In this document: positions 1 to 7,396 of the stretch, one piece after another
How the letters are laid out: the number at the start of each line of letters is the position of its first letter
Numbering within the stretch: position 1 is the first letter of the stretch
DNA from: Rhodospirillaceae bacterium
GTDB lineage: Bacteria; Pseudomonadota; Alphaproteobacteria; MPNO01; UBA2964
Assembly (NCBI GenBank): GCA_038146865.1
Contig: JAYQSL010000007.1
Span: forward strand, 131,190-195,189
Direction of reading: 5' to 3'
Length of the DNA: 64,000 bases
Program-made: the position numbers and the translations under genes
The notes under the pieces: model-generated
Databases searched by the model: none
Told to the model about the DNA's origin: nothing
What the model saw: only the letters and a program-made list of their open reading frames with translations

Positions 1-111
1 TGCATTGTAGCAATTGGTAAACATCAGGAACTGATAGAGCAAAGCGACCTTTACGCGAGGCTTGCTGCTTTGCAATTTGATGTGGAACTGCCGAAAAAAA
101 CCGAATTTTAA
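1..111 (+). CDS. 3' end of an ABC transporter ATP-binding/permease fusion protein (MsbA-like exporter C-terminus, partial)
   Basis: Frame 1 is open from the window edge to TAA at 109-111. The translation ...AIGKHQELIEQSDLYARLAALQF... resembles the typical C-terminal tail of ABC exporters. Confidence 0.5.
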   Translation, partial: CIVAIGKHQELIEQSDLYARLAALQFDVELPKKTEF

Positions 112-136: not shown

Positions 137-1495
137 TTAGCGGTTCGTTAGCTTAAATTCTATCCGTCGATTCCTCTGCAGAGCTTCTTTGCTCGATGAA
201 TTTTCAATTGGATGGAATTCTCCAAACCCGGCTGCAACGAGTCTTTCCGGCGGAAGGCCGTTTTGAATTAATAGCTTGATTACCGAGACGGCCCTGGCTG
301 TTGAGAGTTCCCAGTTGGATCGAAATTCTCTATTTCTAATTGGTCGTCTGTCGGTGTGTCCATCTACTCGTAAAACCCAATCGAGGTTGGCAGGGATTTT
401 TGCTCCAATTTCACTAAGCGTTTTTCCTAATTCAGCTATCTTTCTGCGGCCCACTGCTTTTATTTCACTAGACCCTGAACCAAATAGAATTTCTGATTGA
501 AAAACGAACCTATCTCCGACTATTCGAATATCACCACGATCTCCAATGACTTCACTCAATTTACCAAAAAATTCAGATCGATATCTAGCCAGTTCCTCTA
601 CTTTAGCTGCTAGTGCCGCATTAAGTCGTTTTCCAAGATTTATAATTTTCACTTGTTGTCTTTTGCTTTTCTCCTCGTAAGCCTCCAGGGCGGCTGAGAT
701 TTTTTCTAATTTTTGTCGAAGGGCAGCAATCTGTTGATTTAGAAGTTCAACCCTTGCCCGCTCGGTCGCTGACAGATTTTTTTCCTCCAACAGTCCTTTC
801 TCCAAAGCACCAGCGCGAGTCTTCATTTGGCTTAGCAATAATTTGGTCTCTTTTAACTGCTTTTGCGCGAGCAAAGTACGTTCGGTCTCAGTGCTGAGTT
901 TTGCCTCCAGTTCTTTCGATTTGTCTCTCAATGATGAGAGCTTTTTCTCGCTTAATTTTAAGGCGGTTGCGCTCAGGGAAACCTGATTTTCTAGTTTGGT
1001 ACGTAATTTTTTTAGAGCCTCTATATCTCTTTGAAGCTGTTCAAGTTCTCCTAATTGCAACTTAATTTTTTCACGGTCGACTTCAATTTCCTTGTAAGAA
1101 CTTGCAAGCTCTAAAGTTGTTTGATTCAGTTTAGTTTCAGATATCAACAATGCTTCAGCAAGTTTTTGCTTTTCTTGCTTAGACACAACCAGCTGATTTT
1201 TTAGCGCATCTCTCTCCGAGACGGTATTTTCTAGATCTATATCCAGTTGATTTATTTTTGATCTTAGCTCGGCGCTTTCTTTTTTTTCGATGGCAAGTAA
1301 CTCAGATAGCTCAGCAACTTGCTGCGTCAGCCGACTTAAAGCTTGGTCTCGGCCCGAGAGGGTTTCTGTCAGAAAGTGTTGAGCAAGGGTAAACACCATC
1401 AATAAAAATAAAATGATGATCAAAAGAGTTGATATCGCGTCCACAAAGCCAGGCCAAATATTTGTAGGGGAATGACGTCTCATGTGAAGCTGCAA
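137..1495 (-). CDS. MotB-like stator/anchor protein: N-terminal TM and plug motif, roughly 260-aa coiled coil, C-terminal OmpA/MotB peptidoglycan-binding domain
   Basis: A 452-aa ORF. The N-terminus, NIWPGFVDAISTLLIIILFLLMVF, is the MotB-type TM segment with the conserved Asp. Residues about 50-310 are heptad-rich in E, K, L and Q. The C-terminus, RIVGDRFVFQSEILFGSGSSEI...RVDGHTDRRPIRN...SNWELSTARAVSV...RRIEF, is a canonical OmpA_C/MotB_C. It lies 19 nt downstream of a MotA-like gene. Confidence 0.85.
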   Translation of the reverse strand: MQLHMRRHSPTNIWPGFVDAISTLLIIILFLLMVFTLAQHFLTETLSGRDQALSRLTQQVAELSELLAIEKKESAELRSKINQLDIDLENTVSERDALKNQLVVSKQEKQKLAEALLISETKLNQTTLELASSYKEIEVDREKIKLQLGELEQLQRDIEALKKLRTKLENQVSLSATALKLSEKKLSSLRDKSKELEAKLSTETERTLLAQKQLKETKLLLSQMKTRAGALEKGLLEEKNLSATERARVELLNQQIAALRQKLEKISAALEAYEEKSKRQQVKIINLGKRLNAALAAKVEELARYRSEFFGKLSEVIGDRGDIRIVGDRFVFQSEILFGSGSSEIKAVGRRKIAELGKTLSEIGAKIPANLDWVLRVDGHTDRRPIRNREFRSNWELSTARAVSVIKLLIQNGLPPERLVAAGFGEFHPIENSSSKEALQRNRRIEFKLTNR

Positions 1496-1514
1496 AGCGA
1501 TAGTTTACTGGTGC

Positions 1515-2660
1515 TCAGCGGCTATTAGTGCGTTCAGCCGCAGCCGCAATCGTTCGTGATAAAACGCGAATTTCTGCCCTGAGTTCAGATACCATTTCGG
1601 CCCGGCCGCCTGATATTTCGTCGACTAAATTCACCAGGTTTTGCTCTATTTTGTTTAGACCAGACAACAATGCTTGACCTGTTTCGATTTGCTTTGGATT
1701 TCCCTCGCGAATGTCCAGGATGATGGGTTCCAGGGTTTGTTGAACTTTTGCCAGTTGAATCATCGTGTCTTCCGCTGTCCTCATCTGTTCAACTAAAACA
1801 TTTATATTTTCAGCAAATTTGGCGACGACTTGGCTTACAGAAAGACGGCTTTCCTCGCCTCTTTCAAGGGTCCGTTCAAGCCTCTCGAGGCTGTCCGCGG
1901 TTTTTTCAAGGAGAGCCTCAACATATGCGGGAACCCCGACTTCGCCTTCAGATAAATTTATAGGCCCTGACGAAAGCCTTGTTTGTCGCGCTAGCCATTC
2001 CTCAACGTCATTATAAAAATGGTTTTGGGCCTGGCTTGACTGCAGTTCCAGGAAGCCCAACACAAGCGATCCCGCAAGCCCAAAAAGAGATGAGCTAAAA
2101 GCTGTTCCCATTCCTTCGAGCGGCGCCTGAAGACCTTTTTTGAGATCACTGAAAACCGTTGTCATGTCGCCCGAACCAGCACTGAGACCGCTTATGACAC
2201 CAGCTACCGAATTTATTGTTTGGAGTAATCCCCAGAAAGTTCCGAGTAGACCGAGAAAAATCAATAAACCTATCATATATCTCGAGATATCCCGGGTTTC
2301 CTCCAACCTTGATGCCAACCCATCCAGCAATGATCGTTGCGATAAAGCAGATATCGTGGTCACAGTTTTCTGTTCCCCTAACATGGTTGCAATTGGCGCC
2401 AGGAGTTTGGGCGAGCCCCTCGTGTAAAGCCCGTTTTGATTAAAACGATAATCGTCAAGCCACGATGTTTCTTTTAATAGCAGAAGTGGTTGACGGATTA
2501 TGTGGATCACCCCAATTACTAGGACGCCGAGGATGACCCCATTCAGCCCTGGGTTCGATAGAAATGACTTAAAAAGGTCAGAGGAAATTAATAATACAAT
2601 AGCGACTACAATAATAAGAAAGACCACCATTCTTATGAGATATTGCCCTGGTTTTTTCAT
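1515..2660 (-). CDS. MotA/TolQ/ExbB-family proton-channel protein with extended C-terminal cytoplasmic coiled-coil tail
   Basis: A 381-aa ORF with an N-terminal TM pair. It carries the MotA_ExbB signature helices IGLLIFLGLLGTFWGLLQTI and GMGTAFSSSLFGLAGSLVLGFL; compare TolQ in the same window, GLFGTVWGIM...AEALFATALGLVAA. After the last TM there is a helical tail of about 170 aa rich in E, R and L. Confidence 0.85.
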   Translation of the reverse strand: MKKPGQYLIRMVVFLIIVVAIVLLISSDLFKSFLSNPGLNGVILGVLVIGVIHIIRQPLLLLKETSWLDDYRFNQNGLYTRGSPKLLAPIATMLGEQKTVTTISALSQRSLLDGLASRLEETRDISRYMIGLLIFLGLLGTFWGLLQTINSVAGVISGLSAGSGDMTTVFSDLKKGLQAPLEGMGTAFSSSLFGLAGSLVLGFLELQSSQAQNHFYNDVEEWLARQTRLSSGPINLSEGEVGVPAYVEALLEKTADSLERLERTLERGEESRLSVSQVVAKFAENINVLVEQMRTAEDTMIQLAKVQQTLEPIILDIREGNPKQIETGQALLSGLNKIEQNLVNLVDEISGGRAEMVSELRAEIRVLSRTIAAAAERTNSR

Positions 2661-2722
2661 GATAACCTCTCTAGCTATACTGGGCCGAATGGTTTAACCC
2701 GCCATATCTCGCGGCGGTGACG

Positions 2723-3634
2723 CTAATTAATTAGAAGATCAACGCGGTCAGGTGGTACTGTTTGTCCTTTCGACCCAAGGGCGCGAACATCTATCCTCGT
2801 GCTGCGGATACCAAGTCCTATCAGAGAAGCCCGCACTGCAAGCGCTCGAGAAAGAGACAAACGGCGTGCTTGACTCTCTGTGATCCCAGTTGACGAGGCA
2901 TAGGCTCTGACTTCTACCCTGCTTCTTTCTGAGGCCTTTAATTCACTAGCAATATCGCCCAATGTCTTCTGGGCTTGGGCGTTTAAATTAGAAGTTCCAA
3001 TCCCAAAATTAATGGTAAACGGTTTTTTGTCAGTTTTAACAGGTGCTTTGGCCAGAACTGTGCTCTTATTTGCAGTTTTTGGTTTAGTTTTTGTATTTAA
3101 GAGGTCTTTAGGTTTGGGAGCAGAAACCACAGCTTTCCCCGACTTTACAGGGCTTTTGGGTTGTACTGGCGGTGCGCTTTTAGTGAGTATTTTTGGTTCG
3201 ACAGTATCTCTAGAGGATGATCTCGTTACGCTAATGGGTGTCTGTTTTTTTTGACCTAAATTTCTTCTAATTCTTTTTTTAAGATCGGGGGGAGCGGTCA
3301 AGGAGGGATCCCATTTGGATTTCTTCTCATGACCTATCTTCCCGGCTGGGGGTATGAACTTTCCTCCAATTATAATCGGAAACTGGGGTTTTTTACCTCC
3401 AAGAGGAAATGGGACGACCGAAAAAGAGTAATCATTTTGCTCTGCAGTCCTTTTGCCCAAAAGTGCTGACGCTACATTTGGTGGAGCTCCTAATTTTTCG
3501 AGGACCTTGTTATCCACAAAAACGCTTTGAGCATTTGAGGTTCCACTAAATACGATGGCAATACAGCCAAAAAATAAAGTAAAAATAGAATGCATTTTTA
3601 ACAAACCAGCGCTTGGGCGTCTCAGTTTGGTCAT
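2723..3634 (-). CDS. Secreted or periplasmic OmpA-like domain protein with Pro/Lys-rich linker; first gene of the MotA/MotB-like operon
   Basis: The signal peptide is MTKLRRPSAGLLKMHSIFTLFFGCIAIVFSGTSNA-Q. The ATG at 3634 is preceded by GGAGCTGAGGGGGAT, a ribosome-binding site; the ORF tool calls its start at 3679. A central low-complexity region, PKxP/KTKPK, follows. The C-terminal roughly 100 aa fit the OmpA_C pattern (FTINFGIGTSNLNAQAQKTL...RVEVRAYASSTG...ARRLSLSRALAVRASL...DRVDLLI). Confidence 0.75.
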   Translation of the reverse strand: MTKLRRPSAGLLKMHSIFTLFFGCIAIVFSGTSNAQSVFVDNKVLEKLGAPPNVASALLGKRTAEQNDYSFSVVPFPLGGKKPQFPIIIGGKFIPPAGKIGHEKKSKWDPSLTAPPDLKKRIRRNLGQKKQTPISVTRSSSRDTVEPKILTKSAPPVQPKSPVKSGKAVVSAPKPKDLLNTKTKPKTANKSTVLAKAPVKTDKKPFTINFGIGTSNLNAQAQKTLGDIASELKASERSRVEVRAYASSTGITESQARRLSLSRALAVRASLIGLGIRSTRIDVRALGSKGQTVPPDRVDLLIN

Positions 3635-3741
3635 CGATCTATCCCCCTCAGCTCCATCTTTGGTCCTTGAGTAATTCACCAGATCAAACTAGGAATCCCG
3701 TAACCATAACCCAGACACTATAGCCCCACAATGAATTAACG

Positions 3742-4548
3742 TTAAGAGTGTCGTCGGTTCTTTAAGCCCTGCTGGAGTAGATGCTTGATTGGATCGTATA
3801 AGGAACTGTTCGTTGCCAGAATGGAACCGCCCCTGAGAGGATCGTTTCGGCCGTCAATTTCACTTACCATCCCACCCGCTTCTCTTACGATAAGGATTCC
3901 GGCAGCCACGTCCCACGATGAGAGACCAAATTCCCAAAAACCCTCGTAGCGGCCGGCGGCAACAAAGGCCAGGTCTAACGCAGCGGACCCGAAACGGCGG
4001 ATACCTGCTGTGTGCTCCATAACCAGTGGCAACGCAGCCATCATCTCTTCTTTGCCCTCTCGACCCAAAAAAGGGATCCCTGTCGCGAGTATCGACTCTG
4101 AAAGTTTCGATCTTGCAGACACTCTGAGCCGAGTGTTGTTTAAATATGCTCCCTGACCCTTGGCTGCCCAAAAAAACTCCTCTCGAAGGGGGTCGAGGAT
4201 GATACCCTCCAAAATTTCCCCTTTGTGCACATGCGCAATGGAAATAGAGAAATGCGGAATCGCGTGGAGAAAGTTAGTCGTCCCGTCAAGGGGATCAACG
4301 ATCCACTGATCTTCAGCCTTGGCATCACCAATATGTCCTGCCTCTTCCATAATCATAGAGAATTGGGGATAGGCGGCGCTTAGCTCTCTCTGAATTATAT
4401 TTTCGGCACGCCTGTCTGCCTCAGACACAAAATCAGCTGGGCCTTTACGAGAGATTTGTAAATGTTCCACTTCATTAAAATCATGAACTAGACTGCGTGC
4501 AGCTTTGCGGGCTGCGCCATCCATAATATTTATTATTGCTGGCCGCAT
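3742..4548 (-). CDS. suhB: Inositol monophosphatase family protein (SuhB-like)
   Basis: IMPase motifs WIVDPLDGTTNFLHAIPHFSISIA and ILEGIILDP; 268 aa. Confidence 0.85.
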   Translation of the reverse strand: MRPAIINIMDGAARKAARSLVHDFNEVEHLQISRKGPADFVSEADRRAENIIQRELSAAYPQFSMIMEEAGHIGDAKAEDQWIVDPLDGTTNFLHAIPHFSISIAHVHKGEILEGIILDPLREEFFWAAKGQGAYLNNTRLRVSARSKLSESILATGIPFLGREGKEEMMAALPLVMEHTAGIRRFGSAALDLAFVAAGRYEGFWEFGLSSWDVAAGILIVREAGGMVSEIDGRNDPLRGGSILATNSSLYDPIKHLLQQGLKNRRHS

Positions 4549-4587
4549 TATTTTGCTCCTGCACCGGGATCAGGTACTTAGCTGAAG

Positions 4588-5154
4588 TTAGTCTTTTGCT
4601 CGCTCAATATACGAGCTGTCTGAAGTGTTAACGACAATCTTGGTGCCGGCCTGAATGTGGGGTGGCACCATTACCCGAACACCATTTTCGGTGACCGCAG
4701 GTTTATATGAGGAGGAAGCGGTTTGTCCCTTCACGACCGCGTCGGCTTCTGTGACCAAAAGCGTGACTGACGTCGGTGGTGTAAGTCCAACCGGAGTTCC
4801 TTCTACCGTATTTACGAGGACTTCCATCCCGTCAGTCAAAAATATAGCGGCCTCACCAGCCATATTTTTTTCAACGGTAAATTGATCATACGTTTCGGAA
4901 TCCATCAGAGTAACCAGGTCGCCATCCATAAAGAGTATCGTGCACGTTTTTTCATCTGTCGTAAGTTTCTCAACAGTTTCTTGGGTTCTGAACCTCACGT
5001 TAGTTTTTACTCCAGTTGAAACATCACGCATATCTAAGGCAATGAAAGCGTTTCCTTTCCCCGGTAAAATCAAGTCATATTTGAGAATGCTGTAGCGTCT
5101 GCCCTCATGCTCGATAACGTGATTGGGACGAAGTGTATTGGCGTTCACCTTCAT
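4588..5154 (-). CDS. efp: Elongation factor P
   Basis: 188 aa. The N-terminus VIEHEGRRYSILKYDLILPGKGNAFIALDMRD contains the conserved PGKG lysine loop. Confidence 0.95.
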   Translation of the reverse strand: MKVNANTLRPNHVIEHEGRRYSILKYDLILPGKGNAFIALDMRDVSTGVKTNVRFRTQETVEKLTTDEKTCTILFMDGDLVTLMDSETYDQFTVEKNMAGEAAIFLTDGMEVLVNTVEGTPVGLTPPTSVTLLVTEADAVVKGQTASSSYKPAVTENGVRVMVPPHIQAGTKIVVNTSDSSYIERAKD

Positions 5155-5202: not shown

Positions 5203-6291
5203 TCACTCGGAGTCTAAAGGTTCAATATTGTCCTCGTAATGATGTGTCGCTCCTTTATGGTCTTCGACTATCCAACCCATTCCATCAACGCTTGGAGTAA
5301 TCCAGGTGTCTTCAGCTGAAACTTTCCCGAAACCTCCGGGTATGTCCAACACATATAGAGGTTGTGCAATCCCAGAGAGACGACCCCGAATAGATCGAAC
5401 TAAATTCCGACCGTGCCTCAGTGTGGTCCGAAAATGAGAAGTTCCTTGGGCTAAGTCGCCCTGATGCAAGTAATAGGGCTTTATACGATTTTCAACTAAG
5501 GTACGCATCAGTTTTGTAAGGTCTGTTGAGTTATCATTGATACCTTTTAAAAGAACAGTTTGACTCAGCATTGGGATACCAGAGTCAATTAATTTTCGGA
5601 TCGCTTCCTCTGCTGATTGATCTATCTCTGACGCGTGATTGCAGTGTAGTACAATCCAAAGCGGCTTCTGAATATTGAGCGCTTTTAACATAGCGCTCGT
5701 GATCCTATCAGGATCAAGGGCTGGGACCCGAGTATGAATTCTAATCGTCCCAACATGGTCGATTTTCTCAAGTCTGTTCAGGATATCATTGATTCTTTGA
5801 GGTGCTAATATCAGCGGATCTCCTCCCGATAATATCACCTCCCAGATCTCATTGTTTTGTTTTATGTAGTCGAGGGCTTTGTCGAGTTGGGCCTCGCTTA
5901 AACGGGCCCCTCCAACTGAATTTCTCCGGAAACAAAATCGGCAGTATACCGGACAGGACGATACCGGCATGAGTAAAACGCGGTCTGGATAGCGGTGAAC
6001 GAGACCAAACACTGGAGAATGGTGATCATCGCCGATTGGATCAGACAATTCTTTTTCGGACTTTTCATTTTCATCTGTTGTCGGCACGAATTGGCGAACC
6101 AGAGGATCAGACTTGCTTCTCCCTTTAAGCCGTTCCAGAAGTTTTTTCGGGATCCCGATGGGAAGGGTTCTTGCGGCGTCTTCGCAAGCCTCGGTATCTG
6201 AAAGACATACCAAGTTGGCGTCCACAAGTGCTGAGAGGATTTGCGAATGTTTTTTGCGCTTTCTTCCGGTAAGTTTTTGGATGATATTCAT
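5203..6291 (-). CDS. epmB: EF-P beta-lysylation protein EpmB (lysine 2,3-aminomutase family, radical SAM)
   Basis: Radical-SAM CPVYCRFCFRR motif and KamA-family length of 362 aa. It sits next to efp and diverges from epmA. Confidence 0.85.
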   Translation of the reverse strand: MNIIQKLTGRKRKKHSQILSALVDANLVCLSDTEACEDAARTLPIGIPKKLLERLKGRSKSDPLVRQFVPTTDENEKSEKELSDPIGDDHHSPVFGLVHRYPDRVLLMPVSSCPVYCRFCFRRNSVGGARLSEAQLDKALDYIKQNNEIWEVILSGGDPLILAPQRINDILNRLEKIDHVGTIRIHTRVPALDPDRITSAMLKALNIQKPLWIVLHCNHASEIDQSAEEAIRKLIDSGIPMLSQTVLLKGINDNSTDLTKLMRTLVENRIKPYYLHQGDLAQGTSHFRTTLRHGRNLVRSIRGRLSGIAQPLYVLDIPGGFGKVSAEDTWITPSVDGMGWIVEDHKGATHHYEDNIEPLDSE

Positions 6292-6322
6292 CCGATCAGA
6301 GCCTCATAAATTATAAAATGAC

Positions 6323-7396
6323 ATGAAAACTGACCCAGCTCAAAAACTACTCCCGAAGTGGTGGGATCCAGATCGTATCGCTCTTTTGTTACCAAAGCTT
6401 AGGGCCCGAAATCAAATCTTATCCGTAATAAAAGATTGGTTTAGAAGCGAAGAATTCATAGAGGTAGAAACTCCTGTATTACAGGATTCACCAGGCTTGG
6501 AGCCTCATTTGATAGCTTTTCAAACAACGCTCCTGGAGCCTTTCTCTGCGTCTGGCTCAACAAAGTATCTTCAGAGCTCCCCCGAATACGCGATGAAAAA
6601 GCTTTTGGTTGCCGGTATGACGAAGATTTTTCAAGTAGCCCGATGCTACCGAAACGCAGAACGTTCGATGATTCATCACCCAGAATTTACGATGCTAGAG
6701 TGGTATCGCTCTGGCGCAACTTGGAGGCAGACAGCGAATGACACCGAGGCTTTGATCAAAGCTGCAGCATCTTTGACAGGAAGAAAGGAGGTAAATTTTA
6801 AAAACAACTTATGTGATCTTCGAAAACCGTTTGATTACCTCTCAGTTACTGAAGCATTTTTGAAATTTGCGAAAATAGATCTTCGATTATCTCTAATAGA
6901 TCCCAATTTTCCTGATAGGTCCAAATTGGCGAAGATGGCTAAAGACTCTGGGATTAGGATTGAAAATGAGGATAGTTGGGAGGTAATCTTTGACAGAATC
7001 TTGATTGAGAAAGTTGAACCAAAACTGGGTTTGGGTCGTGGAACTGTTCTTCATGACTATCCATTGCCACTTGCTGCATTAGCTCGAGGATCTTCTGATG
7101 ATCCTCGTGTGGCTGAGCGTTTCGAGGTCTACATCTGCGGTGTTGAGCTGGCCAATGGTTTTGGTGAGCTTTCTGATCCCGTTGAGCAAAGGCAAAGATT
7201 TGAGAGCGATCTTAAGAAAAAAAAGGCATTAGGTATGGCGGTTTATCCAATCGACGAGGACTTTTTAGCCGCGCTCGAAGTGGGTATGCCTAGTTCTTCT
7301 GGTGTAGCTCTCGGTTTGGATCGTTTGGTGATGTTGTTGGTAGGCGCGAAGTGTATCCAAGATGTAATCTGGGCACCTATCATAACAGACTCATGA
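6323..7396 (+). CDS. epmA: EF-P lysine-34 lysyltransferase EpmA (GenX/PoxA, class II LysRS paralog)
   Basis: Class II aaRS catalytic core without an anticodon-binding domain (FQVARCYRNAE...MLEWY...GLDRLVMLL). It lies in the efp neighbourhood. Confidence 0.85.
   Translation: MKTDPAQKLLPKWWDPDRIALLLPKLRARNQILSVIKDWFRSEEFIEVETPVLQDSPGLEPHLIAFQTTLLEPFSASGSTKYLQSSPEYAMKKLLVAGMTKIFQVARCYRNAERSMIHHPEFTMLEWYRSGATWRQTANDTEALIKAAASLTGRKEVNFKNNLCDLRKPFDYLSVTEAFLKFAKIDLRLSLIDPNFPDRSKLAKMAKDSGIRIENEDSWEVIFDRILIEKVEPKLGLGRGTVLHDYPLPLAALARGSSDDPRVAERFEVYICGVELANGFGELSDPVEQRQRFESDLKKKKALGMAVYPIDEDFLAALEVGMPSSSGVALGLDRLVMLLVGAKCIQDVIWAPIITDS

What the first reader, a model, noticed from the sequence alone, without database searches (positions are those of the whole stretch)
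137..3679. Three-gene proton-motive-force stator-like module: OmpA-like periplasmic protein, MotA/ExbB channel with cytoplasmic tail, and MotB-like anchor with a 260-aa coiled coil
The minus-strand operon (3634 to 137, with gaps of 62 and 19 nt) encodes three components. The first is a signal-peptide protein with a TonB/TolA-like Pro/Lys-rich linker and an OmpA_C-like domain. The second is a four-TM MotA/TolQ/ExbB-family channel carrying an unusual C-terminal helical tail of about 170 aa. The third is a MotB-type protein, with the conserved TM Asp, whose plug/TM region and OmpA_C domain are separated by a heptad coiled coil of about 260 residues. The window also contains a complete, canonical Tol-Pal cluster (tolQ, tolR, tolA, tolB, pal, cpoB), so this is a second, non-orthologous energised envelope complex. 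It has no flagellar, gliding, TonB-receptor or T1SS genes beside it. A MotA with a long cytoplasmic tail plus a MotB, outside motility context, is the hallmark of Zorya-type anti-phage stators and of poorly characterised 'stator-like' modules. Here the long coiled coil sits on the B subunit and a third OmpA-domain partner is present, which does not match any system I can name.
Basis: partly seen in the sequence, partly recalled or inferred. Interest (0 to 1): 0.78.

Follow-up and report, generated by a model that had tools for sequence, protein, structure and literature searches.

The report
Orphan stator-like motor of alphaproteobacteria
The three genes are real and encode a membrane ion channel of the flagellar-stator/Tol/Zorya kind, a cell-wall anchor with a long rod-like stalk, and an optional periplasmic partner; the channel-anchor pair is an inherited, widespread alphaproteobacterial core gene pair whose function is still unknown.

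Summary
Three co-directional minus-strand genes encode C (signal peptide, Lys/Pro linker, OmpA-like domain), A (a very divergent four-TM MotA/ExbB/TolQ/ZorA-type subunit with a 176-aa helical tail) and B (MotB-type TM with an invariant Asp, about 280 residues of helix, canonical OmpA domain).

It is a second, non-Tol, non-flagellar stator-like module, and its nearest HMM relatives are ZorA and ZorB. It is not a Zorya defence system and not an unnamed oddity:
- A-B is adjacent in 27 of 27 alphaproteobacterial genomes sampled, in a conserved housekeeping neighbourhood (efp-suhB-[C]-A-B, then a convergent MsbA-related ABC gene).
- It has no effector genes, no phage hits and no true plasmid hits.
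- B belongs to NCBIfam PRK09039.
- The 'motA/motB' studied in non-flagellated Komagataeibacter hansenii are the same family. There the GFP fusions are polar, overexpression elongates cells, and knockouts are viable.
- C is a dedicated but optional partner, present in 8 of 27 genomes.

New here: B's coiled coil changes length only by whole heptads (112 of 118 close homologs in one phase), while A's length stays constant.

Best model: a PG-anchored, proton-driven 5:2 motor or gated channel whose output partner is unknown.

The parts
2723..3634 (-). Gene C: secreted periplasmic protein of 303 aa. It has a signal peptide, a conserved SVxVDxxVLxxLG motif, a Lys/Pro-rich linker and a C-terminal OmpA-like domain. 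It is an accessory partner of A-B.
   Evidence: ORF. RBS before the ATG at 3634. Pfam OmpA 8e-13. Family alignment. Found upstream of A in 8 of 27 genomes. 4 of 4 distant homologs lie at suhB-C-A-B.
3527..3634 (-). C signal peptide, about residues 1-36, ending in SNAQ|S.
   Evidence: Hydropathy peak at residues 11-35. An A-x-A-Q motif is conserved at the same place in homologs. Cleavage itself is inferred.
2768..3007 (-). C OmpA-like domain, a degenerate variant. It has AYA in place of GH(T/A)D and keeps the Arg of SLSRA.
   Evidence: Pfam match. Alignment with the window's Pal.
1515..2660 (-). Gene A: 381-aa, four-TM, MotA/ExbB/TolQ/ZorA-superfamily channel subunit (the presumed pentamer).
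   Evidence: ORF. RBS. Pfam MotA_ExbB sub-threshold. PADLOC ZorA1 7.6e-16. Foldseek top hits are all 5:2 A subunits. More than 8000 homologs and 536 clusters at 50% identity with E below 1e-30.
2046..2324 (-). A channel core, residues 113-205: TM3 (GLLGTFWG, Thr141), a periplasmic loop, and TM4 (GMGTAFSSS, Thr186/Ser189/Ser191).
   Evidence: Invariant columns. Most conserved block across 33 divergent sequences. The only stretch alignable to the window's TolQ.
1518..2045 (-). A cytoplasmic tail, residues 206-381, with predicted helices 245-319 and 329-379.
   Evidence: AF2 model. Conserved motifs VPAY..ALLE.TAD and GR.E..ELR.EIRVL.RT. A's length stays at 344-399 aa across loci.
137..1483 (-). 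Gene B: 448-aa MotB-type anchor, a member of NCBIfam PRK09039. The start could instead be the TTG at 1495.
   Evidence: ORF. NF006543 437 bits against a cutoff of 305. The exact 448-aa product is in public gene calls.
1382..1456 (-). B N-terminal TM with the invariant WPGFVD (Asp15), residues 10-34.
   Evidence: Invariant columns W10-D15. Hydropathy peak at 16-34. The motif was found in the B protein of every locus.
545..1381 (-). B periplasmic heptad coiled coil, residues 35-313. It has a conserved membrane-proximal part (35-110), a variable insert (about 110-225) and a conserved OmpA-proximal part (230-313).
   Evidence: Continuous heptad register. AF2 helices 11-195 and 201-313. Indel positions. 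Heptad quantisation.
140..529 (-). B OmpA-type peptidoglycan-binding domain, residues 319-448. It has the canonical GHTD and NWELSxxRA motifs and ends in the family signature IEFKLTNR.
   Evidence: Pfam OmpA 1e-15. Closest PDB sequences are flagellar MotB C-domains 6ysf and 6ysl, about 2e-15. C-terminal motif present in 118 of 120 homologs.
3742..5154 (-). Conserved upstream neighbours: a suhB-like inositol monophosphatase gene (3742-4548) and efp (4588-5154). These are context, not part of the machine.
   Evidence: ORFs. suhB-like gene: NCBIfam. efp: identified by tblastn homology and by the Pfam EFP domains on the called genes of related loci; it was not scanned in the window itself. The same order is seen in most related loci.
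1..111 (+). 3' end (last 36 codons) of a convergent MsbA-related ABC transporter gene. It is a conserved downstream neighbour.
   Evidence: Translation matches the C-terminus of the L001 ABC protein. That protein is TIGR02204 MsbA_rel, 849 bits against a cutoff of 780. The same neighbour is seen in L029, L030 and S. meliloti.

Best explanation
A and B form an inner-membrane, ion-driven (most likely proton-driven) complex of the 5:2 MotAB/ExbBD/TolQR/ZorAB kind.

Proposed working:
1. Five A subunits surround two B transmembrane helices that carry the essential Asp.
2. The two B chains leave the membrane as one uninterrupted parallel coiled-coil rod. In this organism the rod is about 280 residues, roughly 40 nm if fully extended.
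3. The rod ends in a dimeric OmpA-type domain that fixes the complex to peptidoglycan.
4. With B held by the wall, ion flow through the A/B interface turns or conformationally cycles the A ring.
5. A's 176-residue cytoplasmic helical tail, whose length is conserved, is the output element. It acts on a cytoplasmic partner encoded elsewhere and not yet identified.
6. C, where present, is a secreted periplasmic accessory that binds the periplasmic face of the complex or the wall.

The machine is a vertically inherited housekeeping component of the alphaproteobacterial envelope, not a mobile defence system. The only experimental data, from Komagataeibacter, point to the cell pole and to cell elongation or separation.

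Shown: the gene content, the motifs, the synteny, the family membership and the heptad quantisation.
Inferred: the 5:2 stoichiometry, the ion specificity, rotation, the parallel dimeric rod, the tail as output, and the physiological role.
For: Superfamily:
- The invariant TM3 motif GLLGTFWG and the polar TM4 (T186/S189/S191) match the positions of the Thr/Ser ion filter described for ZorA (Thr147/Ser184, PMC11946911).
- The structure search returns only ExbB, TolQ, ZorA and MotA chains.
- PADLOC ZorA1 scores 7.6e-16 and ZorB3 2e-24.
- B has the invariant WPGFVD Asp and a canonical OmpA domain most like flagellar MotB C-domains.

Obligate pair:
- A-B is adjacent in 27 of 27 genomes.

Rod:
- The register is continuous and proline-free over residues 31-290.
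- The Asp-to-GHTD spacing is congruent to 2 mod 7 in 112 of 118 close homologs, over 14 distinct lengths from 345 to 443.
- 27 divergent genomes fall into two phase classes, 2 and 5 mod 7, over a 240-558 range.
- Whole-heptad indels between two conserved flanks are what an uninterrupted supercoil requires.

Housekeeping rather than mobile:
- The efp-suhB-(C)-A-B-|MsbA_rel synteny runs from Rhodospirillaceae to Rhizobiaceae and Pelagibacterales-labelled MAGs.
- A and B identities track those of efp and suhB.
- There are no phage hits and no true plasmid hits.

Not flagellar:
- The pair is present in non-flagellated Komagataeibacter (PMC6570709).
- S. meliloti's copy sits in this housekeeping neighbourhood (thiE-sel1-suhB-A-B), with no flagellar gene in the 12.7 kb shown.

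Physiology (PMC6570709, PMC7347698):
- GFP fusions are polar, and bipolar in long cells.
- Overexpression gives elongated or chained cells and more colony spreading.
- Knockouts are viable and make denser cellulose.

Link to this family:
- The cloning primers encode MTRPTTY (MotA N-terminus) and ...EFRLTDR* (MotB C-terminus).
- The paper's BLAST hit WP_086640501.1 is in the cluster of P0177, itself a 4e-76 hit of window A.
Against: - No direct evidence here for stoichiometry, ion flow or rotation.
- A is so divergent that Pfam MotA_ExbB is below threshold. A family profile finds no solved MotA, ExbB or ZorA chain by sequence.
- The A model is only medium confidence (pLDDT 66), and the Foldseek E-values are weak, about 2e-3.
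- A rod of 24-70 nm is far longer than the usual inner-membrane-to-wall distance (established knowledge). It cannot simply stand perpendicular, so its geometry is unexplained.
- The AF2 monomer model breaks the helix at 196-200, which could mean a hairpin rather than a straight rod.
- No cytoplasmic partner is identified.
- The Komagataeibacter phenotypes come from overexpression and biotechnology-oriented assays, and are not mechanistic.
Confidence: 0.55

Rival explanations
1. It is a Zorya-type (or Zorya-derived) anti-phage defence stator. A-B senses envelope perturbation by phage and signals through the A tail to effectors encoded elsewhere.
For: - The best hits among known systems are ZorA and ZorB models: PADLOC ZorA1 7.6e-16 over residues 124-329, including the start of the tail, and ZorB3 2e-24. 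NCBIfam ZorA_4 and ZorA_2 match weakly.
- A has a cytoplasmic helical tail and B a PG-binding domain, as in ZorA5B2 (PMC11946911).
- Some A-family representatives are 557-614 aa. The two of these that were scanned have no OmpA domain, so they probably carry longer tails.
Against: - NCBIfam Zor scores are far below cutoffs: 19.8 against 500 and 17.5 against 100.
- There is no ZorC, D, E, F or G-like gene next to the pair in the window or in any of the related loci examined (L001-L032). The neighbours are efp, suhB, thiE and an MsbA-related ABC gene.
- The pair was found in every alphaproteobacterial genome the scan returned, at the same chromosomal place, with divergence like its housekeeping neighbours. 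Defence systems are patchy and mobile.
- No phage or true plasmid copies.
- The tail is 176 aa with constant length, against about 500 aa (about 70 nm) in ZorA. The long coil is on B in the periplasm instead.
Confidence: 0.07
2. It is a flagellar stator paralog (an extra MotAB set), as the public annotations 'flagellar motor protein MotA' and 'chemotaxis protein MotB' say.
For: - Source annotations.
- Four-TM MotA-like topology.
- B's OmpA domain is closest to flagellar MotB C-domains in the PDB.
- Increased colony spreading on overexpression in K. hansenii.
Against: - The family is present in non-flagellated Komagataeibacter, where it is the only Mot-like pair (PMC6570709).
- It is present in Pelagibacterales-labelled MAGs.
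- It is never beside flagellar genes in the loci examined.
- All NCBIfam flagellar MotB, MotD and MotS models are far below cutoff, for example 102 against 283.
- Pfam MotA_ExbB is below threshold. MotA chains are weaker structural matches than ExbB, TolQ or ZorA.
- The tail and the long coil have no counterpart in MotAB.
Confidence: 0.04
3. It is a Tol/Ton-like energy transducer in which C plays the TolA/TonB role. A-B energises C, whose Lys/Pro linker spans the periplasm to act on the wall or outer membrane.
For: - C has a Lys/Pro-rich extended linker and a C-terminal globular domain, and is always immediately upstream of A where it occurs.
- ExbB and TolQ are the top structural matches of A.
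Against: - C has a cleavable-type signal peptide (A-x-A-Q) rather than an N-terminal membrane anchor that could dock on the A ring.
- C is absent from 19 of 27 genomes that keep A-B.
- B is MotB-like with its own PG anchor, unlike TolR and ExbD.
- C evolves much faster than A and B: 70% against 92-94% identity to the closest genome.
Confidence: 0.08
4. It is not a motor but a static inner-membrane-to-wall tether or a gated ion channel (mechanosensor). Tension on the long B coil opens or closes the A/B ion path, and the signal is ion flux or a tail conformational change, without sustained rotation.
For: - The rod is very long and variable in length, which seems a poor rigid torque anchor.
- Conserved heptad phase would also be needed to transmit a pull or twist to the TM helices.
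- The knockout is viable.
- Zorya itself is proposed to be gated by the membrane-to-wall distance (PMC11946911).
Against: - Every structurally characterised relative that turned up here is described as a 5:2 rotary motor.
- The universally conserved Asp and the Thr/Ser ring are retained.
- Nothing in the sequence distinguishes gating from rotation.
Confidence: 0.2

Closest known systems
ZorA/ZorB of Zorya anti-phage systems (ZorA5B2; PMC11946911)
   Same: - Best HMM relatives of both A and B.
- A-type subunit with a helical cytoplasmic tail after the last TM.
- B-type subunit with an essential TM Asp and a dimeric PG-binding domain.
- No obvious MotB-like plug.
- Thr/Ser polar positions in the last two TMs.
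   Different: - No ZorC-G effectors.
- Core-genome, syntenic and class-wide rather than patchy and mobile.
- Tail is 176 aa against about 500 aa.
- B carries a 165 to more than 450-aa periplasmic coiled coil that ZorB lacks.
- Scores are far below the Zor family cutoffs.
- An optional secreted OmpA-like partner, C.
Flagellar stator MotA/MotB (PomA/PomB)
   Same: - Four-TM A subunit.
- B with W...D TM motif and an OmpA-type PG anchor.
- B's OmpA domain is closest to MotB C-domains in the PDB.
- Adjacent A-then-B gene order.
   Different: - Not in a flagellar context and present in non-flagellated genera.
- The cytoplasmic loop between TM2 and TM3 is only about 70 aa.
- Has a C-terminal tail.
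- A long coiled coil replaces the short plug and linker.
- All flagellar NCBIfam models are below cutoff.
TolQ/TolR(-TolA) and ExbB/ExbD(-TonB)
   Same: - Top structural matches of the A model.
- The GxxGTxWG TM motif aligns with the window's own TolQ.
- PMF-dependent envelope machines.
   Different: - The window has a separate, complete Tol-Pal cluster.
- B has an OmpA domain and a coiled coil rather than the small TolR/ExbD periplasmic domain.
- No membrane-anchored TolA/TonB-type transducer.
- A has four TMs plus a tail.
NCBIfam PRK09039 'peptidoglycan-binding protein' (NF006542-NF006546), with its unnamed MotA/TolQ/ExbB-family neighbour; equal to K. hansenii 'MotA/MotB' (Jacek et al. 2019, PMC6570709)
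   Same: - This is the family itself. Window B passes NF006543, S. meliloti B passes NF006544 full-length, and the K. hansenii pair maps to it.
   Different: - The window's B is about 100 residues longer than the canonical 343-350-aa form because of extra heptads.
- The window lineage also carries gene C.
- The family has a name but no assigned mechanism. A is covered by no Pfam or NCBIfam model above threshold.
GldL/GldM (PorL/PorM) of gliding and type IX secretion
   Same: - A 5:2-type motor whose B-type subunit carries a long periplasm-spanning dimeric extension (my knowledge of the published structures; not tested here).
   Different: - GldM is made of globular domains and is thought to rotate and reach the outer membrane.
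- Here B ends in a PG anchor and is an alpha-helical coiled coil.
- No sequence relationship was detected.

Membership tests
MotA/ExbB/TolQ/ZorA superfamily (A subunit of 5:2 ion-driven motors) | Last two TMs carry the G-x-x-G-T-x-x-G motif and a polar Thr/Ser-containing helix that face the B-subunit Asp. | tested here: met
   GLLGTFWG (T141) and GMGTAFSSSLFGLAGS (T186, S189, S191) are invariant in 29 sequences. The motif aligns to the window's TolQ.
MotA/ExbB/TolQ/ZorA superfamily (A subunit of 5:2 ion-driven motors) | Passes the curated Pfam MotA_ExbB (PF01618) threshold. | tested here: not met
   17.3 bits against a gathering score of 22.9. The family profile finds no solved homolog by sequence.
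MotA/ExbB/TolQ/ZorA superfamily (A subunit of 5:2 ion-driven motors) | The fold resembles solved A subunits. | tested here: met
   All 50 listed Foldseek PDB matches are ExbB, TolQ, ZorA or MotA chains. E is about 2e-3 to 1e-1 and TM-score to target up to 0.58. The model pLDDT is only 66, so this is supportive rather than strong.
MotA/ExbB/TolQ/ZorA superfamily (A subunit of 5:2 ion-driven motors) | Assembles as a pentamer around a B dimer and conducts ions. | not testable with these tools
   No multimer prediction or experiment was available.
MotB-type B subunit | Single N-terminal TM with a conserved, essential Asp. | tested here: met
   W10-P-G-F-V-D15 is invariant. TM at 16-34. The motif was found in the B protein of all 27 genome loci and of the further loci aligned.
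MotB-type B subunit | C-terminal OmpA-type PG-binding domain with GH(T)D and N..LS..RA motifs. | tested here: met
   Pfam OmpA 1e-15. VDGHTD and NWELSTARA are present. PDB MotB C-domains match at 2e-15.
MotB-type B subunit | Short plug helix and flexible linker between the TM and the PG domain. | tested here: not met
   A continuous heptad helix of about 280 residues follows the TM directly.
Flagellar stator (MotAB/PomAB/MotCD/MotPS) | Passes the NCBIfam flagellar MotB, MotD or MotS equivalog cutoffs. | tested here: not met
   Best is MotD at 102.3 bits against a cutoff of 283. All others are lower.
Flagellar stator (MotAB/PomAB/MotCD/MotPS) | Occurs in flagellated organisms and in a flagellar gene context. 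| tested here: not met
   Housekeeping neighbours in all loci examined. The family is present in non-flagellated K. hansenii.
Zorya defence system | ZorA and ZorB pass the Zor family models. | tested here: not met
   NCBIfam ZorA_4 19.8 against 500 and ZorA_2 17.5 against 100. PADLOC matches are partial, covering profile positions 106-285 of 683.
Zorya defence system | Adjacent effector genes: ZorC and ZorD, ZorE, or ZorF and ZorG. | tested here: not met
   None in the window or in any of the related loci examined (L001-L032). C has no PADLOC hit.
Zorya defence system | Long ZorA tail (about 500 aa, about 70 nm) required for function. | tested here: not met
   The tail is 176 aa, and A's length is 344-399 aa across loci. 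Zorya values are from PMC11946911.
Zorya defence system | Confers phage resistance. | not testable with these tools
   Needs a plating assay.
Tol-Pal / Ton energiser | B subunit of TolR/ExbD type, plus a membrane-anchored TolA/TonB transducer. | tested here: not met
   B is OmpA-type. C has a signal peptide rather than an anchor. The true tolQRAB-pal-cpoB cluster is elsewhere in the window.
NCBIfam PRK09039 'peptidoglycan-binding protein' | Whole-protein score above the curated cutoff of an equivalog model. | tested here: met
   NF006543 437.1 bits against 305, and NF006544 369.8 against 362.
NCBIfam PRK09039 'peptidoglycan-binding protein' | Family C-terminal signature and an adjacent A-type gene. 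| tested here: met
   IE[FL]KLTxR ends 118 of 120 homologs, and the window B ends IEFKLTNR. A-B is adjacent in 27 of 27 loci.

The most novel reading that the evidence does not exclude
A-B is a fifth functional class of 5:2 ion-driven motor, beside flagellar, Ton/Tol, gliding/T9SS and Zorya. It would be a vertically inherited housekeeping machine of Alphaproteobacteria, possibly the chromosomal sister or ancestor of ZorAB. Its stator axle is a heptad-phased periplasmic coiled-coil rod anchored in peptidoglycan. Its rotor tail acts on a cytoplasmic process at the cell pole, such as division, elongation or polarity.
Probability: 0.35. Interest if true: 0.8.

Novelty: new variant of a known kind. 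Interest (0 to 1): 0.6.

Why it matters
Each 5:2 ion-driven motor characterised so far (flagellar stators, Ton, Tol, GldLM, Zorya) turned out to power a distinct and important process. Here is a branch that is:
- conserved in position and sequence across much of a whole bacterial class, including rhizobia, acetic-acid bacteria, marine Rhodospirillaceae and MAGs labelled Pelagibacterales;
- routinely mis-annotated as 'flagellar motor protein MotA' or 'chemotaxis protein MotB';
- without any known output.

It is the closest housekeeping relative of Zorya's sensor-motor found here. It could therefore show what ZorAB evolved from and what such a motor does in an uninfected cell.

The strict heptad quantisation of B's stalk, next to an invariant-length A tail, is a clean and testable structural constraint. 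It says that the angular register between the membrane axle and the wall anchor matters while the length does not.

Tractable hosts exist: S. meliloti carries the pair, and K. hansenii knockouts are already viable. The question is therefore directly testable.

Tried and rejected
1. Sequence search of the PDB with a 29-sequence A profile found only spurious coiled-coil hits (apolipoprotein, stathmin). No 5:2 subunit appeared.
2. Profile comparison of A with the window's TolQ aligned only 20 residues, the GxxGTxWG motif.
3. Literature searches for the family found nothing:
   - PRK09039; stator-like, MotAB-like and ZorAB-like terms; MotA/TolQ/ExbB with model alphaproteobacteria.
   - Targeted reads of the 5:2-motor review (PMC9389320), the MotAB phylogeny paper (PMC12505986), the S. 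meliloti Rgs/Tol-Pal paper (PMC7327166), the Caulobacter BAM paper, the Zorya modularity paper and the periplasmic force-transducer paper.
   - Only the Komagataeibacter papers touch it.
4. The precomputed Pfam domains on B homologs (PF24161 CCDC39, PF19220 crescentin rod, PF28175, ATG16) are generic coiled-coil noise below thresholds.
5. The promoter and terminator scan gave no more sites than shuffled sequence, so it says nothing about operon structure.
6. A regex attempt to measure two 'arms' around the STETERT motif failed because that motif is clade-specific. It was replaced by alignment-based indel mapping.
7. Hairpin model for B, suggested by the AF2 break at 196-200: considered but not favoured. 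Whole-heptad indels between conserved flanks argue for a continuous supercoil, and the break motif is absent from short family members. It is not excluded.
8. A-B fusion: one of 150 A representatives (P0204) contains B's TM after A. This may be a read-through call. The 557-aa and 581-aa forms (P0121, P0126) were scanned against Pfam and have no OmpA domain. BLAST of B's OmpA domain against all 150 representatives found no match.

Full report
**1. What is in the sequence**

Three co-directional minus-strand ORFs occupy 137-3679.

- C runs 2723-3634 from an ATG preceded by GAGGGGGA. The mechanical ORF list extends it to a GTG at 3679.
- A runs 1515-2660, with GAGAGG before its ATG.
- B runs 137-1483 (ATG, 448 aa; this exact product is in public gene calls) or to the TTG at 1495. 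Neither start has a clear Shine-Dalgarno sequence.
- The intergenic gaps are 62 nt (C-A) and 19 or 31 nt (A-B).
- Upstream on the same strand lie a suhB-like gene, efp and an epmB-like gene, with epmA divergent.
- Downstream, window 1-111 (+) is the last 36 codons of a convergent MsbA-related ABC transporter (TIGR02204).

**2. The three proteins**

A (381 aa):
- Three strongly hydrophobic helices at 8-26, 37-55 and 128-146, and a polar fourth at 183-205.
- Invariant GLLGTFWG and GMGTAFSSSLFGLAGS motifs.
- A 176-residue tail predicted as two long helices.
- It is extremely divergent. Pfam MotA_ExbB reaches 17.3 bits against a cutoff of 22.9. No NCBIfam model applies. A 29-sequence profile finds no solved 5:2 subunit by sequence. 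Only 20 residues align to the window's own TolQ.
- The superfamily assignment therefore rests on three things: the motifs; the PADLOC ZorA models (best 7.6e-16 over residues 124-329); and a structure search whose listed matches are all ExbB, TolQ, ZorA or MotA chains. That search has modest statistics and the model pLDDT is 66.

B (448 aa):
- The invariant WPGFVD Asp and one TM.
- Predicted helices 11-195 and 201-313.
- A canonical OmpA domain with GHTD and NWELSTARA, closest in the PDB to flagellar MotB C-domains.
- It passes NCBIfam NF006543, PRK09039.1-2 'peptidoglycan-binding protein', at 437 bits against a cutoff of 305.

C (303 aa):
- A signal peptide ending A-x-A-Q.
- A conserved SVxVDxxVLxxLG motif at the mature N-terminus.
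- A Lys/Pro-rich linker of variable length.
- An OmpA-like domain in which GH(T/A)D is replaced by AYA while the Arg of SLSRA is kept. Canonical wall binding by C is therefore doubtful.

**3. Distribution and context**

- A has more than 8000 close database relatives of about 380 aa and 536 clusters at 50% identity with E below 1e-30.
- In 27 species-level genomes recovered from GTDB, A is immediately followed by B in all 27. All those that carry a class-level label are Alphaproteobacteria: Rhodospirillaceae, Stellaceae, Geminicoccaceae, a Rhizobiaceae MAG, MarineAlpha9 and Pelagibacterales-labelled MAGs. Two records are labelled only 'Pseudomonadota bacterium' and 'Bacterium HR40'.
- The neighbourhood (aldolase)-thiE-efp-suhB-[C]-A-B, then a convergent gene, recurs widely. 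In many marine lineages suhB abuts A directly.
- In S. meliloti the order is thiE-sel1-suhB-A(368 aa)-B(342 aa)-|MsbA_rel.
- A and B identities fall in step with those of efp and suhB, as expected for vertical descent.
- tblastn of A finds nothing in 50,697 phage records. In the plasmid collection it finds only five records of 3.5-4.6 Mb, at least one of which (S. meliloti CP090106) is clearly the main chromosome under a plasmid label.
- C is found upstream of A in 8 of 27 genomes.
- Four distant C homologs chosen from the protein search, including Candidatus Terasakiella magnetica, all sit at suhB-C-A-B.
- So C is a dedicated but dispensable partner, and it evolves faster than A and B: 70% against 92-94% identity to the nearest genome.

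**4.

- The distance from B's TM Asp to the GH[TS]D motif of the OmpA domain takes 14 distinct values from 345 to 443 among close homologs. It is congruent to 2 mod 7 in 112 of 118 of them. The window's value is 359.
- Across the 27 divergent genomes it ranges from 240 to 558 and falls into two phase classes, 2 mod 7 (14 genomes) and 5 mod 7 (12 genomes), with one outlier.
- Indels are concentrated in a central segment, around reference positions 114 and 168-225. This segment lies between a conserved membrane-proximal coil (35-110) and a conserved OmpA-proximal coil (230-313).
- In the window's B the a/d register is continuous and proline-free from the end of the TM to about residue 290.
- Whole-heptad indels between conserved flanks are what a single uninterrupted supercoil demands. 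A hairpin with a flexible turn would not impose them.
- The canonical family length is about 343 aa: S. meliloti B matches NF006544 end to end at 692 bits. The window's 260-280-residue coil is therefore a lineage-specific expansion.
- A's length, in contrast, is held at 344-399 aa.
- Inference: the angular phase between the membrane axle and the wall anchor is under selection. The stalk length is not, and the tail length is.
- Unexplained: even the shortest coil (about 165 residues, about 24 nm) exceeds the usual inner-membrane-to-wall distance, so the rod's orientation is unknown. The AF2 monomer model breaks the helix at 196-200.

**5. Link to experiments**

Jacek et al. 2019 (PMC6570709) studied 'motA' (348 aa) and 'motB' (321 aa) of Komagataeibacter hansenii. 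They describe the genus as non-flagellated and these as its only motility-like genes.

Three observations place the pair in this family:
- Their cloning primers encode V/M-T-R-P-T-T-Y for MotA and ...E-F-R-L-T-D-R-stop for MotB.
- A-family representative P0123 begins MTRPTTYLIRM, and 118 of 120 B homologs end IE[FL]KLTxR.
- Their Table 1 BLAST hit WP_086640501.1 (Acetobacter tropicalis, 63% identity to their MotA) is a member of the cluster of P0177, itself a 4e-76 hit of the window's A.

Reported phenotypes (review PMC7347698):
- Overexpression gives elongated or chained cells, more colony spreading and looser cellulose.
- GFP fusions are polar, and bipolar in long cells.
- Disruption mutants are viable and make denser cellulose.

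This is the only functional information I found. It is not mechanistic.

**6. Interpretation**

Best model (confidence about 0.55): a wall-anchored, proton-driven 5:2 complex.
- B2 is a rod-like stator axle.
- A5 is the moving ring.
- The A tail is the cytoplasmic output.
- It serves a housekeeping envelope or cell-pole function.

Rivals:
- A gated channel or tether without sustained rotation: about 0.2.
- A Tol/Ton-like system with C as transducer: about 0.08. C has no membrane anchor and is absent from 19 of 27 genomes.
- Zorya-type defence: about 0.07. There are no effectors, the pair is core-genome and syntenic, it is absent from phages and plasmids, and scores are far below the Zor cutoffs.
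- A flagellar paralog: about 0.04. It is present in non-flagellated genera, has no flagellar context, and is far below the flagellar cutoffs.

- The TM Asp is present.
- The pair is orthologous to a named family and to genes that have been manipulated, but not to a system whose mechanism is characterised.

**7. Verdict**

- The finding is real and correctly described in anatomy.
- Its framing as a Zorya-like or unnameable trio should be replaced. It is the widespread alphaproteobacterial PRK09039-type A-B stator-like pair, here with its optional C partner and an expanded, heptad-quantised stalk.
- I class it as a new variant of a known kind: 5:2 ion-driven motors. The variant is already catalogued by annotation pipelines, mis-named as flagellar, and functionally open.
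- Interest is 0.6. A motor specialist would want to know what this conserved orphan does. However, the instance in this window is one ordinary member of a large family, and nothing here yet reveals its output.

Noticed in passing
window 137-1483 (B), with homologs P0271-P0390 and loci L001-L027: B's coiled coil changes length only in whole heptads. The Asp-to-GHTD spacing is congruent to 2 mod 7 in 112 of 118 close homologs (345-443). Two phase classes, 2 and 5 mod 7, cover 26 of 27 divergent genomes (240-558). A's length is meanwhile fixed at 344-399 aa.
   Followed up: yes
window 1-111 (+); L001 8550-10367; L029, L030, L032: A convergent MsbA-related ABC transporter (TIGR02204, 849 bits against a cutoff of 780) ends 25 nt from B's stop. 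It recurs downstream of B in distant lineages, including S. meliloti. This may be conserved synteny only, or a functional link to envelope lipid export.
   Followed up: partly
L006 8808-12413, L008 8468-11461, L014 4853-8236: In one clade, a giant paralog-like protein of 1000-1200 aa lies just downstream of B. It has an N-terminal TM, about 900 aa of SMC-like coiled coil, and a PRK09039-type OmpA end (NF006543 at 144 bits, below cutoff).
   Followed up: partly
window 2768-3007 (C OmpA-like domain): C's OmpA-like domain has AYA where Pal and MotB have GH(A/T)D. The Asp that normally contacts the peptidoglycan stem peptide is therefore missing throughout the C family, while the mature N-terminus carries a conserved SVxVDxxVLxxLG motif.
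   Followed up: partly
window 5203-7396: A lysine-2,3-aminomutase-like gene (TIGR03822 AblA_like_2 above cutoff; EpmB below cutoff) and a divergent epmA sit next to efp. This is an EF-P beta-lysylation-type cassette inserted into the thiE-efp-suhB-A-B synteny. Many of the related loci lack it.
   Followed up: no
public annotations of homologs: The family is systematically annotated 'flagellar motor protein MotA' and 'chemotaxis protein MotB'. One C homolog in Candidatus Terasakiella magnetica is labelled 'putative Lysophospholipase'. These names are not supported by the family tests.
   Followed up: yes
P0204 (502 aa; A-family representative): One of 150 A representatives carries B's N-terminal TM region (66% identity to B residues 8-60) at residues 398-450. 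This is either a rare A-B fusion or a read-through or frameshifted gene call.
   Followed up: no
PLSDB records CP090106.1, NZ_CP069303.1, NZ_CP104131.1 and others: Five 3.5-4.6 Mb replicons are in the plasmid collection. CP090106.1 is titled 'pSymB' but carries housekeeping genes (purE, purK, rpmE, thiE, suhB), so it looks like a mislabelled main chromosome. The other four were judged by size only.
   Followed up: partly
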